From Dendrobates tinctorius (lineage: Eukaryota), in NCBI RefSeq assembly GCF_039654945.1, contig NW_027361738.1:82398001-82462000 (forward strand): a stretch of 64,000 bases of DNA. Reading direction: 5' to 3'. Shown one piece after another: positions 12,801 to 18,300 of the stretch. Position numbers: made by a program. Positions within the stretch are counted from its first letter, which is position 1, and each line of letters begins with the position of its first letter.

Positions 12801-15328
12801 TGAACTGATCGCTTGGACAATACTATAAATCTGCAATCTCAATCATCTGTGGAGCCTAGAGCTGAGCTTCACAGGCGGACAAAGAAGACAACAATGGGGG
12901 TCTTCAGCAGACCGCGGCTGTCATAGTAACCCAGCAGTATTTAAATAGTTAACAGCCGCGGCTGGAACTTGGCAACGGCCACTGCTGATAGACAGATGCT
13001 GGATATTAAATACAGCCAGTAGATGCTGCATGTGGAGGGAGCTCAGCTCACAGGACGGGAATATGGTGTCCATTCGCAGGAAGGAGTTAAGAATGGAAAT
13101 GTACCCGTAAAAGTCAGATGCTACATTGATGCTCCCATAGACTTGAATGGGTGAGTTTTATCTAAAATATGGAAGAGACTAGCACATGCTGCAATTTCTT
13201 TTTTCATGCATGTATGCAAATTGCCTCTTCGGAGAGGAAGAGGACTTGAACTCTATAGCGCCACCTGTTGTAATCAGAAATCCTACAAGTCACTATCGGC
13301 CCTTTAACGAGTCTTGCAATATGAATCGGATAAAAGACTCAGTTTGTAGACACAGTGTTTCAGGGTATTGCCCTTCATCAGTGAAAAGTATGAGAACTGA
13401 TTGGCTAGACCTTTTTTCACGCATCACTCAGATTAGGTGAAAAAAAATGTCATCTTTGAAGAGCCCAAATTAATAACATTGGTACGAGCGCCGTTCGTGT
13501 GAGGTCATTTTTTTTTTTCATGGACAACACTCGGACTGAAAATATGACTAATGGTTTGCCAAAGGTCCACCGAATACAAGACCTTTGGGAGCAGTAACAG
13601 ACAATACTGGAACATGAAGGAATTGGGAAATAAGGACAGAGCCGTAGATGGAGGGTAGTGTGATGAACGCTTTGTATTAGTATTCGGAGTCACAACAGAG
13701 CCGGGTAAAAATTATCCTGTATTTATCACTAAAGTATTTTCTGTCCTAGAAGAATCTTCTTTGCAGGGCAAAAATAGTAATGCTGAGAAAGAGTGGATTT
13801 ATGCATGAATTTATTCCCACAGTAGGAGCATGAAACCGTTTTTTCACCGGTATGAATTTTTTGATGTTCTATAACATAATCTTTCTTGGTAAAACTAGCG
13901 CCACAATCTGAACACGAATACGGCTTCTCTCCGGTGTGTGACCTATGGTGGCAAATTAGAGCAGTTCTCGTTGCAAAATGCCTCCCACAATCCGAACAAC
14001 CGTACGGCTTCTCCCCCGTGTGGATTCTCTGGTGACTCCGGAGACCTACTTTATGCCTGAAGCATTTTCCACACTCGGAACAAGGAAACGGCTTCTCACC
14101 GGTGTGAATCCTTTGATGATCGAGGAGGCTCCTTTTATGGATGAAGCTTTTCCCGCACTCGGAGCATGCCAGCGGTCTCTCCCCTGTGTGGGTTTTCATA
14201 TGCGTGGCAAGGCTTTTCTTCAGTTTAAAGCTTTTATCACACTGAAGACATGGAAACGTCTTAACAGCAAAAACTGTATTCTCAAAATTAATATTTGGAC
14301 TTTGGACGACACATACATCGGATCTAGATGGCAGTTCAGCACTTCCAGGAATACGGTCAACAATACCCGGTGGAGATCTCCAGTGCGAAAGTGAATCCGA
14401 AGACAAAGTCGCGGGATGGAATAATGGGATATTGGGGATTTGTCCTACAAATTCTGGAGTGATTACTACCGGTATATTTTCATTTAAAGCGTCAGTAGAG
14501 ACATTTCCATCATTCTCCACAGATTTCTCGGGTTGCACTAAAGAATTAAAAAAGGAAAAAAAATTATAGTGAGCCTAATTTTTACATAATAATGGCTACT
14601 TTCTTGTTCTAATGCCAAACAACCACAGTACAAAACTGAAAAAAGCAACAAAAAACAAACAAAACAAAATAGAACTGTATAATCAGAAGGTTACTGCATT
14701 GTATTAAAGGAAACTGGCCTTAGGCTACAAGTCACTATGTGACTAAAGACTTGTGAATACTTACGCCGCTATGAGGATTTTTCATGCTGCTCCGAGAGCG
14801 CGTGGTCATGTGACCGCATACTTCTGGCCACATTCCGACTAGACATGTACGGCTTTGCTCAATACACTTGCATTGAGAGAGTCCGCGCAAGTCTAGTCTG
14901 CATGTAACCTCATGTATGCAATATGATTGGAACTTGTTAAATGCCGCTGACAGTGGCTTTTAACTCGCGCTTCCGGTAAGCGCGCCGGAAATCCCACCCA
15001 CTGGTGACCCTGTCATGTGATCGCGGTTCACCAATGGGTTAGCATGACAGCCAGAGGTCTCCAGTAGACAGCTTTGGTTGTCATAGCTGGATTGCTTATG
15101 CTATTATAGCCGGACTGCTAATACCCGATAGGTAAATGACGTAATGAGAAAATTCAAAACGCCAGAATTACTTTTTTTTGGTCGCCGCTACATTGCAATA
15201 AAATGTAATAACAGGCGATCAAAATACCGTACACATACCAAAATGGTATCAGTAAAAAAAAGTCAGCAAAAAATAAGCCCTCACCAAGCCCTAAGTCACA
15301 AAAAATGGAGGAAAATGGTTCCTGTTTA

Positions 15329-15359
<31 letters not shown>

Positions 15360-18300
15360 AAAGTTTGGATTTTTTTTTCACCATTTAAATTAAAAAGAAT
15401 CTAGACATGTTCGGTGTCTATGAACTCGTAATGACCTGGAGAATCATAATTACAGGTCAGGTTTAGCATTTAGCGAACATGGTGAAGAAAAAAAAAAATC
15501 TGTGGAATTGCACTTTTTGTTTTTTGCAATTTCACAGCACTTGGAATTTTTTTCCAGTACAAGATATGTTAAAACCAATGGTGTCATTCAAAAGTACCAC
15601 TTGTCTCGCCAAAACAAGCCCTCACATTGGCCATTTTGACTGAAAAATAAAAAAGTTATGGCTCTGGGAAGAAGGGAAGCAAAAAACAAAAACACGAAAA
15701 CTAAAATACATCCGGTCATGAAGGAGTTAAGGCCCCAAATCTATGAATAAGTTGAGAATGTGATTCCCAGAATCTCAGTCTCATCAGGTGAGACAACCAG
15801 AATTAATGGAGTTATGAAATAGCTTATCACGCCCCCAATATACAGTGTATATTATATAGTTGTGACTTACGGGCGTAATTCTGTGCTGGGCAGACGCACT
15901 CATGCTGAATAAGAGTGGATTTATGGGTGAAACTCTTCTCACAGTAAGAACATGAAAATGGTTTTTCGCCAGTGTGAATCTTCTGATGTTCAGTGAGATA
16001 TTCCTTTCGGGTAAAATTTGCGTCACAATCGGAACATGAGAATGGCTTTTCTCCAGTATGCGCTCGTCGGTGACGTTTCAGAGCTGTTTTGCCCGCAAAG
16101 AATTTCCCACATTCTGAACAACCATACGGCTTCTCCCCCGTGTGGGTTCTCTGGTGGCTGAGAAGACCCACTTTATGTCTGAAACATTTTCCACACTCAG
16201 GACAAGGGAACGGCTTCTCTCCGGTGTGAATTCTTTTGTGGTCAAGAAGACTCCGCATATGGATAAAGCTTTTCCCGCATTCAGAACAGGATAATGAACG
16301 TTCACCTGTGTGAGTTTTAATATGTATTGAAAGACTATTTTTGTGCTTAAATGATTTCCCGCATTCGGGGCATGGAAATGTCTTATTCAATGTGAAAATG
16401 GGTTCCTGGAGTACAAATGTTGGGTTCGGGGTGACATATTCATTGGGCTCGCAATGCGTAAGTGTGTTATTGTCGGAGGTGTCAAGTGATGGTTCCAAGT
16501 GTTCAGGAGAATCCAAAGACAAATCTGTAGCAAAATTTGCGGTAGAAGGAAGTGGGAAATTGAGGTTGCCTTCCGGAAATTCTTGTAGCATTTCTTCTTC
16601 TTCCAATTTATAATCGGGAGACACAATCGAATATTCTTCCACGATTTTCCTACAGCAGTGCTGACCTGGAAAGAAAGAGGTAGATTGTGTTTTTACGTGA
16701 AACTCTATTTTTAGAGAACTCTTTCGAGTATGGACGAATCTGAAGAATCTTCAAGCATTGGAGGAATAGATGGCATAATTCTAAGACCTGAGCAAGCAAT
16801 AGAGTTAAGAAATTATTTTTTTTTATTGATTAAAAGCAGCACAACTTTACCCAATGAGGAGACTTTATACAACATCAACCTAAAAACTGTAGAGTTCACA
16901 TCGGTAGACTGTGAACGGTCTACTTTAGAGAACCTCTAAGCATGGGAGGAATTAATGTAAGATTCAGAAACAAAAGAAAAAAATATGGAGAACAGGTTTA
17001 AAAAACTGTAGCAATATGAAGCTTGGAGTAATTGGCACACAACATTACCCAAAGTGGAGAGTTCGTCATCGTCCATCACCAAGTCCTTGTACAGGCTCTT
17101 GTGTCCTTCTACATAGTCCCACTCCTCCATGGAGAAATAAACCGTTATATCGTCATATCGCAGAGGAACCTGCAGAATCAGAACCACAAAATAATAAATC
17201 AGTAGAATCAAAGTAATGTTGGCAATAAATTTCTTCCAGCTTTTAGAAATGGTCAAAATGCTTTTTTTTACCTCTCCAGAAATCAGCTGACTGATCCGGT
17301 TGGTGACTTCTAGAATCTTTTTATCGTAATTTTCCCTTTGCATCACGGAAGTCGGCTGAGCGGTCATGACAGGTTCTTCTGATGTCTTTTTGACTACGAC
17401 ACAGTCCTGTATATCAGATATAAAATTATGTACAAGTTATAAAATACTGAGGTAAGAAACAGTAGTGGCTTCATTGTCACATTCTCCGAATCCCTCACCT
17501 CTCCGGTCAACAGATAGATGATCTCCAGGGTTAGTTTTAGGATCTCCTGAGACAGGTCACCGCTGTCGTTGTCCATCCTGAATATTTTGGTAAATGAACG
17601 CTGTTCTTCGTGGGTTGAATTCTGTGGGATAGAAATTGTTTATTTGTGATGAAGGCTGTAAATTCTCACATAAATTAACGTATTTTCCTCTTTTTAAAGG
17701 TTTTTTTTAAGGATTTAAAAATCAGCTGCAAAGGGGCATACGGACAGTTGTAAATAGAGGCAACGTCTGGTGTCAGAGGAATCATGGAAAACATAAGATG
17801 GGACTTAAAATGGAGCTGCAGCCTATAGTATACAAAAAGGTGAATTCAACGTAGGTGCCCAATATAAGTGGGTAAGAGATGCCACCTAGTTTATATAGTC
17901 AGCAGACAAGGCTCTTCCCCTGGCCAGACCATCATTGTATGTGTATATATATATATATATACACACCATAGGTCTGTGTACAGACTAAAACTCCTGTTTT
18001 TTCTAAACCTGGAGGGGGATGTCTAAGATCAATAAATACAAAATAAACTGTTTATAGACCCCAGACCAGTTCTCAAACTAAACTTTTACAAACTTGAACT
18101 CACTCCAGAAGATAATCAAAAGTCACCTCTTCATTTTTGTACTTTCCTCAGGTCCCGGGGGCCATTGCATTGAGGGTCCTGTGCTGCTCAAAGTCTGCGC
18201 ATTGCCCAGGAGAGGATGGAGACGCAAGAATGTGAATCATAGAATCGTAGAGTTGGAAGGGACCTCCTGGGCCATCTGGTCCAACCCCCTGCTCAAAGCA

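What the first reader, a model, noticed from the sequence alone, without database searches (positions are those of the whole stretch)
13729..16665. One KRAB-like gene with two duplicated six-finger exons arranged as a splice-switchable cassette
Seen: exon 4 has a phase-1 acceptor and an internal C|GTAAGT donor after 15871, also phase 1. Exon 5 has a phase-1 acceptor and no KRAB-like exons of its own. Three in-frame products are possible: both arrays (12 fingers), array 2 only (skipping exon 4), or array 1 only (read-through to the stop at 15827). The arrays correspond finger by finger but differ in recognition helices (HKNSLSI/LKKSLAT, HMRSLLD/HKRSLLD, HKVGLLS/HKVGLRS, GKTALKR/TRTALIC, RKEYLTE/KKDYVIE, HKSTLIQ/HKSTLSQ). 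Established: canonical KRAB-ZNF genes keep all fingers in one terminal exon. Inference: splicing could swap DNA-binding specificity.
Basis: partly seen in the sequence, partly recalled or inferred. Interest (0 to 1): 0.65.

Follow-up and report, generated by a model that had tools for sequence, protein, structure and literature searches.

The report
Frog zinc-finger gene with two arrays
A poison-frog repressor-type gene carries two old copies of its six-finger DNA-binding exon and joins them into one twelve-finger protein; this unusual layout is already in the public annotation, and the proposed splice switching is not shown.

Summary
On the minus strand a five-exon KRAB-like zinc-finger gene has two six-finger exons: 16665-15871, and 14537 to the stop at 13729.

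Each of the five exon translations is 100% identical to one RefSeq protein, XP_073438128.1 of Dendrobates tinctorius (645 aa). That protein uses the junctions 17049>16665 and 15871>14537, so the 12-finger product is the annotated one.

Gene models of Ranitomeya variabilis, R. imitator and Anomaloglossus baeobatrachus contain the same junction. A homologous two-array model exists in Eleutherodactylus coqui.

The arrays are ancient duplicates. Synonymous sites are saturated (pS 0.74) while pN is 0.14, so both copies are under purifying selection.

Switching is not supported:
- No protein of 147-469 aa carries the exon-5 linker.
- Intron 4 has no AATAAA or ATTAAA.
- In-frame skipping follows automatically from the shared phase-1 acceptors.
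- Only 7 of 24 base-contact residues differ between the arrays.

One hint remains: E. coqui "isoform X3" joins fingers 1-2 of array 1 to array 2. No RNA data could be examined. The joined protein was not built or searched.

The parts
17499..17621 (-). First coding exon. The acceptor AG is at 17623-17622 and the ATG at 17576-17574. It encodes 26 codons (MDNDSGDLSQEILKLTLEIIYLLTGE), has donor GAG|GTGAGG and ends in phase 0. The frame is also open upstream of the ATG, back to the acceptor.
   Evidence: (26/26 identical to P0121 residues 1-26).
17272..17406 (-). Second coding exon, 45 codons, phase 0 at both ends.
   Evidence: (45/45 identical to P0121 residues 27-71).
17049..17169 (-). KRAB-like (A-box) exon, 40 codons plus 1 base. 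Donor TGG|GTAATG, ends in phase 1.
   Evidence: Pfam KRAB E=4.4e-5, 23.5 bits against a cut-off of 20.4, profile positions 4-31 of 42; 40/40 identical to P0121 residues 72-111. KRAB was not listed for the whole protein at E<=0.001.
15871..16665 (-). Exon 4: 97-residue linker 1 plus finger array 1 (six fingers, the last C2HC). It is 795 nt, with a phase-1 acceptor and a phase-1 donor.
   Evidence: (264/264 identical to P0121 residues 113-376).
15865..15870 (-). GTAAGT, the 5' splice site that turns the former terminal exon into an internal one. In context it reads CCC|GTAAGT, 7 of 9 matches to CAG|GTAAGT, the best donor in the gene.
   Evidence: The junction ...CPAQNY[A/T]-[L/R]-QPEK... is present in 4 of 4 dendrobatoid models.
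15827..15829 (-). TGA reached if the donor is not used. The read-through tail is RKSQLYNIHCILGA.
14538..15864 (-). The rest of intron 4 (the intron is 1333 nt with the donor hexamer). It has no KRAB-like or N-terminal exon and no AATAAA or ATTAAA on this strand. It holds a dispersed repeat at 15157-15511 that also occurs at 63539-63908.
13729..14537 (-). Exon 5 coding part: 95-residue linker 2 plus finger array 2 (six fingers, the last C2HC), ending at stop TAG 13731-13729. The acceptor has 20 of 22 pyrimidines and is the strongest in the gene. There is no in-frame Met before finger 1.
   Evidence: (268/268 identical to P0121 residues 378-645).
12774..12779 (-). First canonical poly(A) signal (AATAAA) after the exon-5 stop, 950 nt downstream. 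Others lie at 12765, 12737, 12702, 12698 and 12612.
   Evidence: That these signals are used is inferred.
16301..16306 (-). The only other strong donor-like site in exon 4, in the linker after finger 1. It reads CAG|GTGAAC, with last exon base 16306, and is in phase 1. The span given is the last exon base plus the first five intron bases. It is a candidate alternative donor and is not shown to be used.
   Evidence: 2 sites with at least 6 of 9 matches in 16665-15800.
43898..47285 (-). Paralogue 'gene B'. It has the same three 5' exons and a single ZNF exon: a 141-residue linker, six fingers and a decayed seventh. It has no second array, so it shows the ordinary one-array layout.
   Evidence: 100% identical to P0124 = XP_073438130-33, D. 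tinctorius, 432 aa.

Best explanation
This is one protein-coding gene of a dendrobatid frog. Every exon is identical to Dendrobates tinctorius XP_073438128.1, and the sequence is not human. Its normal product is a 645-residue protein built as follows: an N-terminal frog-type module, a KRAB-like A box, linker 1, six fingers, linker 2, six fingers.

Exon 5 is an ancient full-length duplicate of the ZNF exon, running from the phase-1 acceptor to the C2HC end finger. It has no 5' exons or start codon of its own. It is expressed because a strong phase-1 donor (C|GTAAGT) in the short tail behind array 1 turned the former terminal exon 4 into an internal exon that splices onto the inherited phase-1 acceptor of exon 5.

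Shown here:
- the anatomy
- identity to the annotated protein
- colinearity of the two exons
- purifying selection on both arrays
- presence of the junction in related species' gene models.

Inferred:
- The protein binds DNA with both arrays. Because the arrays have similar contact residues, it should read a long or bipartite target made of two similar half-sites.
- It represses through its KRAB-like box by recruiting TRIM28. This has been shown for the Xenopus XFIN KRAB domain (PMC3912051, abstract read).
- The 12-finger form is the main, probably constitutive, product.
For: - Exons 1-5 are 26/26, 45/45, 40/40, 264/264 and 268/268 identical to P0121. They map to residues 1-26, 27-71, 72-111, 113-376 and 378-645, and residues 112 (G) and 377 (L) are the predicted split codons.
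- The junction CPAQNY[A/T][L/R]QPEK is found in 4 of 4 models: D. tinctorius, R. variabilis, R. imitator and A. baeobatrachus.
- Exon 4 and exon 5 are colinear from the first residue (Q) to the CPA tail, and both are colinear with the single ZNF exon of gene B (alignment A1).
- Over 168 aligned codons, nucleotide identity is 74%, amino-acid identity 75%, pS 0.74 (saturated) and pN 0.136. Both copies therefore stayed intact under selection for a very long time.
- Array-1 heptads are identical in all 4 species (6 of 6). In array 2, 2 of 6 heptads are identical in all 4 species and the other four show 1-2 changes.
- Exon 5 is 93% identical to R. variabilis and 80% to Anomaloglossus.
- The E. coqui homologue also has linker 2 and array 2 behind part of array 1.
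- There are no 5' exons and no poly(A) hexamer in intron 4.
- The donor matches 7 of 9 consensus positions and the acceptor has 20 of 22 pyrimidines.
Against: - All protein records are automated gene models. I could not see whether RNA-seq supports the junctions, and such pipelines borrow evidence between related species, so the four models are not independent.
- Three of the four dendrobatoid models chain gene B and gene A into 1144-1206-residue proteins with two KRAB-like boxes. Either read-through is real, or the pipeline tends to over-join neighbouring ZNF paralogues. The second case lowers trust in any join.
- The E. coqui record is 'isoform X3' and uses another donor, so the layout may be alternatively spliced.
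- The KRAB match is marginal (23.5 bits on the exon alone) and is not listed for the whole protein at E<=0.001.
- DNA binding, half-site similarity and TRIM28 recruitment are inference only.
Confidence: 0.75

Rival explanations
1. Splice-switch cassette. The gene regularly makes several products: both arrays, array 2 alone by skipping exon 4, array 1 alone by read-through, or a shortened array 1 plus array 2. These products differ in DNA target.
For: - All these products are in frame.
- Exon 4 is a 795-nt internal exon, far longer than usual, and its acceptor (17 of 22 pyrimidines) is weaker than that of exon 5 (20 of 22).
- A second phase-1 donor-like site lies at 16306.
- The E. coqui homologue is annotated as 'isoform X3' and joins fingers 1-2 of array 1 to array 2.
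Against: - No protein of 147-469 aa has the exon-5 linker; 0 of 10 candidates passed.
- Among proteins of 470-2000 aa, only the cluster of the two-array and fused forms carries it; 1 of 70 candidates passed.
- The D. tinctorius record has no isoform label.
- Intron 4 has no AATAAA or ATTAAA.
- Frame compatibility follows from common descent of the acceptors and is not evidence of design.
- Contact residues differ at only 7 of 24 positions, no more than other positions (35 of 144), so a switch would change specificity little.
Confidence: 0.2
2. Exon 5 is not part of this gene. It is a relic of, or belongs to, a separate downstream gene, and the join in the database models is an annotation artefact.
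For: The same pipelines also join gene B to gene A in three species, so over-joining of neighbouring ZNF ORFs is plausible. No transcript data were seen.
Against: - Exon 5 has kept a 268-codon open frame and all 24 zinc ligands although synonymous sites against array 1 are saturated.
- It is 80-93% conserved in other genera.
- It has no start codon before finger 1 and no 5' exons in the 1.3 kb upstream.
- An optimal GTAAGT donor sits in the right phase directly behind array 1.
Confidence: 0.05
3. Gene B and gene A form one read-through unit, as in the Ranitomeya and Anomaloglossus models. Some transcripts would then encode 18 fingers and two KRAB-like boxes.
For: - Fused models of 1175, 1206 and 1144 aa exist.
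- In the window the ATG exon of gene A has an acceptor at 17623-17622 and an open frame from 17621 to the ATG. This stretch aligns to the fused R. variabilis protein, residues 520-560, at 88%.
Against: - In D. tinctorius the two genes are annotated apart: P0121 of 645 aa and P0124 of 432 aa.
- About 26 kb, including two satellite arrays of roughly 5 kb each, lie between them.
- The bridging residues of the fused models found no match in the window at E<=1e-3.
Confidence: 0.1

Closest known systems
KRAB zinc-finger protein genes of tetrapods (KZFPs), including amphibian ones such as Xenopus XFIN
   Same: - An N-terminal KRAB-A-like box sits on its own phase-1 exon, followed by a tandem array of C2H2 fingers with TGEKP-type linkers.
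- The gene lies next to a paralogue in a cluster.
- The expected action is repression through TRIM28. This was shown for the XFIN KRAB domain (PMC3912051, abstract read).
- 158 KRAB-ZNF models were predicted in X. tropicalis (PMC3971581, passages read).
   Different: - The fingers are split over two exons that are whole-exon duplicates, joined through a donor created behind array 1. The usual layout, as I recall it and as gene B in this window shows, has all fingers in the last exon.
- The KRAB match is weak and covers the A box only.
- There is an extra frog-type N-terminal module (…LTLEIIYLLTGE) with no Pfam family.
Drosophila lola / fruitless / mod(mdg4)-type genes, where common 5' exons are spliced to alternative zinc-finger exons
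   Same: One effector module lies upstream of more than one zinc-finger-coding exon, so in principle the DNA-binding part could be chosen by splicing. For lola I saw only the search listing and abstract starts (e.g. PMC1947980); the mechanism is recalled.
   Different: - There, the ZF exons are mutually exclusive 3' ends, each with its own terminator, and the effector is a BTB domain.
- Here, the exons are joined in series, intron 4 has no poly(A) hexamer, and no alternative product is annotated in this species.
Conjoined (read-through) genes between neighbouring ZNF paralogues
   Same: - A downstream ZNF exon is expressed through the upstream gene's promoter and effector exons.
- The B+A fusions in the Ranitomeya and Anomaloglossus models look like the early stage of this.
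- Exon 5, whose own 5' exons are gone, looks like the fixed end stage.
- That human KRAB-ZNF read-through loci exist is recalled. My search listed no paper on them that I read.
   Different: Conjoined genes keep two independent genes. Here the downstream unit has no 5' exons, promoter evidence or start codon, and the join has been conserved at least since the split from Anomaloglossus.

Membership tests
KRAB zinc-finger protein (KZFP) gene | N-terminal KRAB-A box | tested here: met
   Pfam PF01352 on the exon 17169-17050: E=4.4e-5, 23.5 bits against a cut-off of 20.4, profile positions 4-31 of 42. PF01352 is among the precomputed domains of the orthologues. The match is marginal and was not listed for whole P0121 at E<=0.001.
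KRAB zinc-finger protein (KZFP) gene | Tandem C2H2 fingers with conserved linkers | tested here: met
   12 fingers in two blocks of six. For P0121, zf-C2H2 E=5.4e-54 and zf-H2C2_2 E=1.8e-76.
KRAB zinc-finger protein (KZFP) gene | All fingers encoded by one 3'-terminal exon (usual gene layout; recalled) | tested here: not met
   The fingers lie in exon 4 (16665-15871) and exon 5 (14537-13729), separated by a 1333-nt intron. Paralogue gene B has the usual layout.
KRAB zinc-finger protein (KZFP) gene | Binding of TRIM28/KAP1 and transcriptional repression | not testable with these tools
   The only analogy is the amphibian XFIN KRAB domain, which represses and binds TRIM28 (PMC3912051, abstract).
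lola/fru-type alternative zinc-finger-exon gene | Alternative, mutually exclusive ZF exons, each ending its own mRNA | tested here: not met
   There is no AATAAA or ATTAAA between 15826 and 14538. The annotated product joins both exons in series. No protein of 147-469 aa has linker 2. Transcripts themselves could not be examined.
lola/fru-type alternative zinc-finger-exon gene | BTB/POZ effector domain in the common exons | tested here: not met
   The Pfam scan of P0121 lists no BTB.
Conjoined / read-through gene pair | Two units that each also exist as an independent gene with its own 5' end | tested here: not met
   Exon 5 has no KRAB-like or N-terminal exon and no start codon of its own. 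For gene B plus gene A the feature holds, and fused models exist in 3 of 4 species.

The most novel reading that the evidence does not exclude
The serial two-array layout is a conserved, regulated splicing device of hyloid frogs. By choosing among phase-1 donors in exon 4 (15871, 16306, or skipping the exon), the gene would make repressors with 12, 7 or 6 fingers from one KRAB-like module, as the E. coqui 'isoform X3' (2+6 fingers) hints. This would be a vertebrate KZFP counterpart of insect lola/fruitless. It would also show how read-through between tandem ZNF paralogues (the B+A fusions in Ranitomeya and Anomaloglossus) becomes fixed as a multi-array gene.
Probability: 0.15. Interest if true: 0.55.

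Novelty: new variant of a known kind. Interest (0 to 1): 0.3.

Why it matters
KZFP genes normally gain new targets by whole-gene duplication or by adding and losing fingers inside one exon. Here an entire second array was captured as a further exon and kept, at least since the dendrobatid-aromobatid split. A homologous layout occurs in Eleutherodactylus.

This is a concrete example of exon capture by creation of one splice donor. It gives a protein with two similar six-finger halves that should read a long or repeated target.

It also warns annotators. Tandem frog ZNF paralogues are chained differently in different species' models: separate genes in D. tinctorius, an 18-finger fusion in three others.

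The gene model is already public as an automated 'uncharacterized protein', so the gain is descriptive and evolutionary rather than a new mechanism, unless regulated isoform choice is shown.

Tried and rejected
- Looked for an array-2-only product. Query: exon-5 linker, residues 1-95, against proteins of 147-469 aa. 10 candidates, none at E<=0.001.
- The same query against proteins of 470-2000 aa gave 1 of 70 candidates, the P0014 cluster. P0030 was missed there although it holds the linker, so this word-based search is not exhaustive.
- The whole-exon-5 search among longer proteins was swamped by poly-ZNF proteins. 7999 of 8000 candidates passed and 120 were listed. Only 2 of the 120 had 80% identity or more at 100% coverage.
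- The 645-aa protein was found only through the cluster listing.
None is in the P0014 cluster of 5 members. P0122 (315 aa, R. imitator) is a model that breaks off inside finger 3 and is not such an isoform.
- E. coqui isoforms X1 and X2 were not retrieved.
- Separate gene or pseudogene for exon 5: rejected (see rivals).
- Diversifying selection on recognition helices: rejected. Omega is 0.046 at contact codons against 0.044 elsewhere, with dS saturated, and 7 of 24 against 35 of 144 residues differ.
- Flanking-intron homology between the two exons: none found by blastn beyond the 507-nt finger block. This is expected at this age, so it cannot tell exon duplication from capture of a third gene's exon.
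- Literature: no paper was found on D. tinctorius together with zinc fingers (0 papers). Nothing listed or 42 describes serial duplicated ZNF exons in a KRAB gene. Supplementary tables of PMC3971581 (frog ZNF gene models) were closed and may list such models.
No genomic DNA of other frogs could be compared, so conservation of the donor hexamer itself, of the read-through tail and of intron 4 stayed unchecked.
- Searches (pattern made only of N; coordinates with stop codons) were plain errors.

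
Full report
**1. Observation**

I read 13500-17300 and 17150-18100 on the minus strand. The gene runs from high to low coordinates.
- The ATG exon is 17621-17499 (ATG at 17576, 26 codons, phase 0).
- The second exon is 17406-17272 (45 codons).
- The KRAB-like exon is 17169-17049 (40 codons plus one base, donor TGG|GTAATG).
- Exon 4 begins at 16665 behind ...tttccag, and the split codon G+GT gives Gly.
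- Behind the sixth finger lies CCC|GTAAGT, with last exon base 15871, again in phase 1.
- If that donor is unused, the frame stops 14 codons later at TGA 15829-15827.
- Exon 5 begins at 14537 behind ...ttctttag (split codon C+TG gives Leu) and ends at TAG 13731-13729.

- Each exon carries six fingers. Pfam zf-C2H2 gives E=4.7e-33 and 3.5e-26.
- The sixth finger of each array is C2HC.
- The KRAB box match is weak: E=4.4e-5 and 23.5 bits against a cut-off of 20.4, on the exon alone. It was not listed for the whole protein at E<=0.001.
- The window has no N.

**2. What it is**

A search with the exon-5 translation among proteins longer than 469 aa was dominated by poly-ZNF proteins. 7999 of 8000 candidates passed and 120 were listed. 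Two of the 120 covered the whole exon at high identity:
- P0014, Ranitomeya variabilis, 1175 aa, 93% identical
- P0030, Anomaloglossus baeobatrachus, 1144 aa, 80% identical.

The 90% cluster of P0014 has five members. They include P0121 (XP_073438128.1, 'uncharacterized protein', Dendrobates tinctorius, 645 aa) and P0124 (XP_073438130-33, 432 aa).

I compared the five exon translations with P0121 one at a time. They are 26/26, 45/45, 40/40, 264/264 and 268/268 identical and map to residues 1-26, 27-71, 72-111, 113-376 and 378-645. Residues 112 (G) and 377 (L) are the two split codons.

The window is therefore D. tinctorius or something indistinguishable from it at this locus. It is a frog, not human.

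I did not build, type or search the joined (spliced) protein. The model was examined exon by exon only.

**3. Origin of the second array**

- Exon 4, exon 5 and the single ZNF exon of a paralogue in the same window (gene B, 47285-43898, minus strand, 100% identical to P0124) are colinear from the first residue behind the acceptor to the tail behind the last finger (alignment A1).
- Exon 5 is therefore a duplicate of the whole ZNF exon. Its phase-1 acceptor is inherited.
- By blastn only the finger block still aligns (15879-16385 against 13757-14263, 74% over 507 nt).
- Over 168 codons, pS is 0.74, which is saturated, and pN is 0.136 (Nei-Gojobori). The duplication is very old and both copies were kept under purifying selection.
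- Exon 5 has no Met before finger 1. No KRAB-like or N-terminal exon lies in the 1.3-kb intron.
- The one new element is the donor behind array 1. GTAAGT occurs only 12 times in the 128,000 strand positions of the window.
- I cannot tell whether exon 5 arose by duplication of the exon alone, or is the last exon of a third tandem paralogue whose 5' exons were lost.

**4. Conservation**

- The junction CPAQNY[A/T]-[L/R]-QPEK is present in 4 of 4 dendrobatoid models.
- The six heptads of array 1 are identical in all four species. In array 2, two of the six heptads are identical in all four species and the other four show 1-2 changes.
- An exhaustive HMMER search with the 95-residue exon-5 linker found 2 proteins at E<=0.001 among 1.84 billion representatives. 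They are P0030, and P0125 of Eleutherodactylus coqui.
- The cluster mate of P0125 is P0126 (XP_066441863.1, 'isoform X3', 581 aa). It reads KRAB-like box, linker 1, fingers 1-2 of array 1, then ...RIHTG|HSKK..., linker 2, and six fingers ending CPAKKILL.
- The two-ZNF-exon layout therefore predates the dendrobatid-aromobatid split. A homologous form exists in a more distant hyloid frog.

**5. Is it a switch?**

Against:
- (a) No protein of 147-469 aa holds the exon-5 linker; 0 of 10 candidates passed. Among longer proteins only the P0014 cluster does, 1 of 70 candidates. That search missed P0030, so it is not exhaustive.
- (b) The D. tinctorius record has no isoform label.
- (c) No AATAAA or ATTAAA lies between 15826 and 14538. 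The first one after exon 5 is at 12779.
- (d) In-frame skipping is not independent evidence. Given two phase-1 acceptors by descent and an in-frame 12-finger product, exon 4 must be symmetric.
- (e) The arrays differ at 7 of 24 contact positions (-1, 2, 3, 6) against 35 of 144 other positions. Fingers 2, 3 and 6 are identical at the contacts. A swap would change specificity modestly.

For:
- The E. coqui 'isoform X3'.
- A second phase-1 donor-like site, CAG|GTGAAC, at 16306. It is one of only 2 sites with at least 6 of 9 consensus matches in exon 4.
- The unusual 795-nt internal exon, and the stronger acceptor of exon 5 (20 of 22 against 17 of 22 pyrimidines).

No RNA data could be examined, so switching is unproven rather than excluded.

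**6. Caveat on the models**

Three of the four dendrobatoid models (R. variabilis, R. imitator, Anomaloglossus) chain gene B to gene A, giving 18 fingers and two KRAB-like boxes. In D. tinctorius the two are separate genes.

In the window the ATG exon of gene A has an acceptor and an open frame upstream of the ATG that matches the fused proteins. The bridging residues have no match in the window.

Either read-through is real in those species or the pipeline over-joins. This is why I do not treat the four models as independent proof. I rest the join mainly on the selection evidence, the missing 5' end of exon 5, the optimal in-phase donor and the missing poly(A) signal.

**7. How it most likely works (inferred)**

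- It is a sequence-specific repressor.
- The KRAB-like A box would recruit TRIM28, as shown for the Xenopus XFIN KRAB domain (PMC3912051, abstract read).
- The two similar six-finger halves, 95 residues apart, would read a long or bipartite target with two related half-sites.

**8. Compared with what is known**

- It works like, and mostly qualifies as, a KZFP gene, except for the one-exon finger layout.
- It is not a lola/fru-type gene: it has no BTB domain, the exons are joined in series, and exon 4 has no terminator of its own.
- It looks like the fixed end state of a conjoined ZNF pair.
- My literature searches found no description of such a layout. Closed supplements of PMC3971581 might list frog models of this kind.

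**9. Verdict**

The feature is real and correctly described. It is already present as an automated public annotation. It is an uncommon variant of a very common gene kind. The functional 'switch' idea is unsupported. Interest 0.3.

Noticed in passing
window 43898-47285 (minus strand): Paralogue 'gene B' is 100% identical to D. tinctorius XP_073438130-33 (432 aa). Its fingers 2-4 (HYRSLFD, HYRSLLD, HYRSLVD) are an 84-bp tandem triplication (TRF 44081-44335, 3.0 copies, 89% matches). The seventh finger is decayed, and homology to array 1 of gene A runs past the stop to about 43822.
   Followed up: partly
P0014, P0123, P0030 (database proteins); window 17577-17621: The RefSeq/GenBank models of R. 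variabilis, R. imitator and Anomaloglossus fuse the orthologues of gene B and gene A into proteins with 18 fingers and two KRAB-like boxes. D. tinctorius annotates two genes. In the window the frame upstream of gene A's ATG is open back to the acceptor at 17623-17622.
   Followed up: partly
N-terminal 102 residues of genes A and B in four species: In Anomaloglossus the N-terminal modules of A and B are 94% identical to each other but only 77-82% identical to either dendrobatid orthologue. In Dendrobatidae A groups with A and B with B. This looks like gene conversion of the 5' modules in one lineage while the finger arrays stayed distinct. In the window the 5' exons with their intron flanks are 80-91% identical between A and B, against about 72% for the ZNF exons.
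   Followed up: partly
window 21603-27137 and 37656-42213: Two large satellite arrays with 30-bp units (about 182 and 153 copies) lie between gene A and gene B. GC skew is strongly positive in the first and negative in the second. By eye the consensus units share a 12-base core in opposite orientation, so the arrays may be an inverted pair. This was not tested.
   Followed up: no
window 49854-53625; 54016-54989; 7631-8429: Further tandem repeats: a 22-bp unit with 170 copies (GC about 0.60, strong skews), 30/31-bp units, and a 51-bp unit with 16 copies.
   Followed up: no
window 18383-19429 (minus strand); 20020-20187 (plus strand): Transposon remains lie just upstream of gene A. One is a 349-codon open frame with a reverse-transcriptase match (RVT_1, E=7.2e-12). 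The other is a DDE_3 transposase fragment (E=1.1e-6).
   Followed up: partly
window 15157-15511 and 63539-63908: A dispersed repeat inside intron 4 of gene A recurs near the end of the window (73% identity over 380 nt).
   Followed up: no
window 4618-4638 (minus strand): An isolated ...IYLLTGE... motif resembles the end of the genes' first coding exon. tblastn found no other exon of the family nearby at E<=1e-3. It may be a decayed exon or chance.
   Followed up: no
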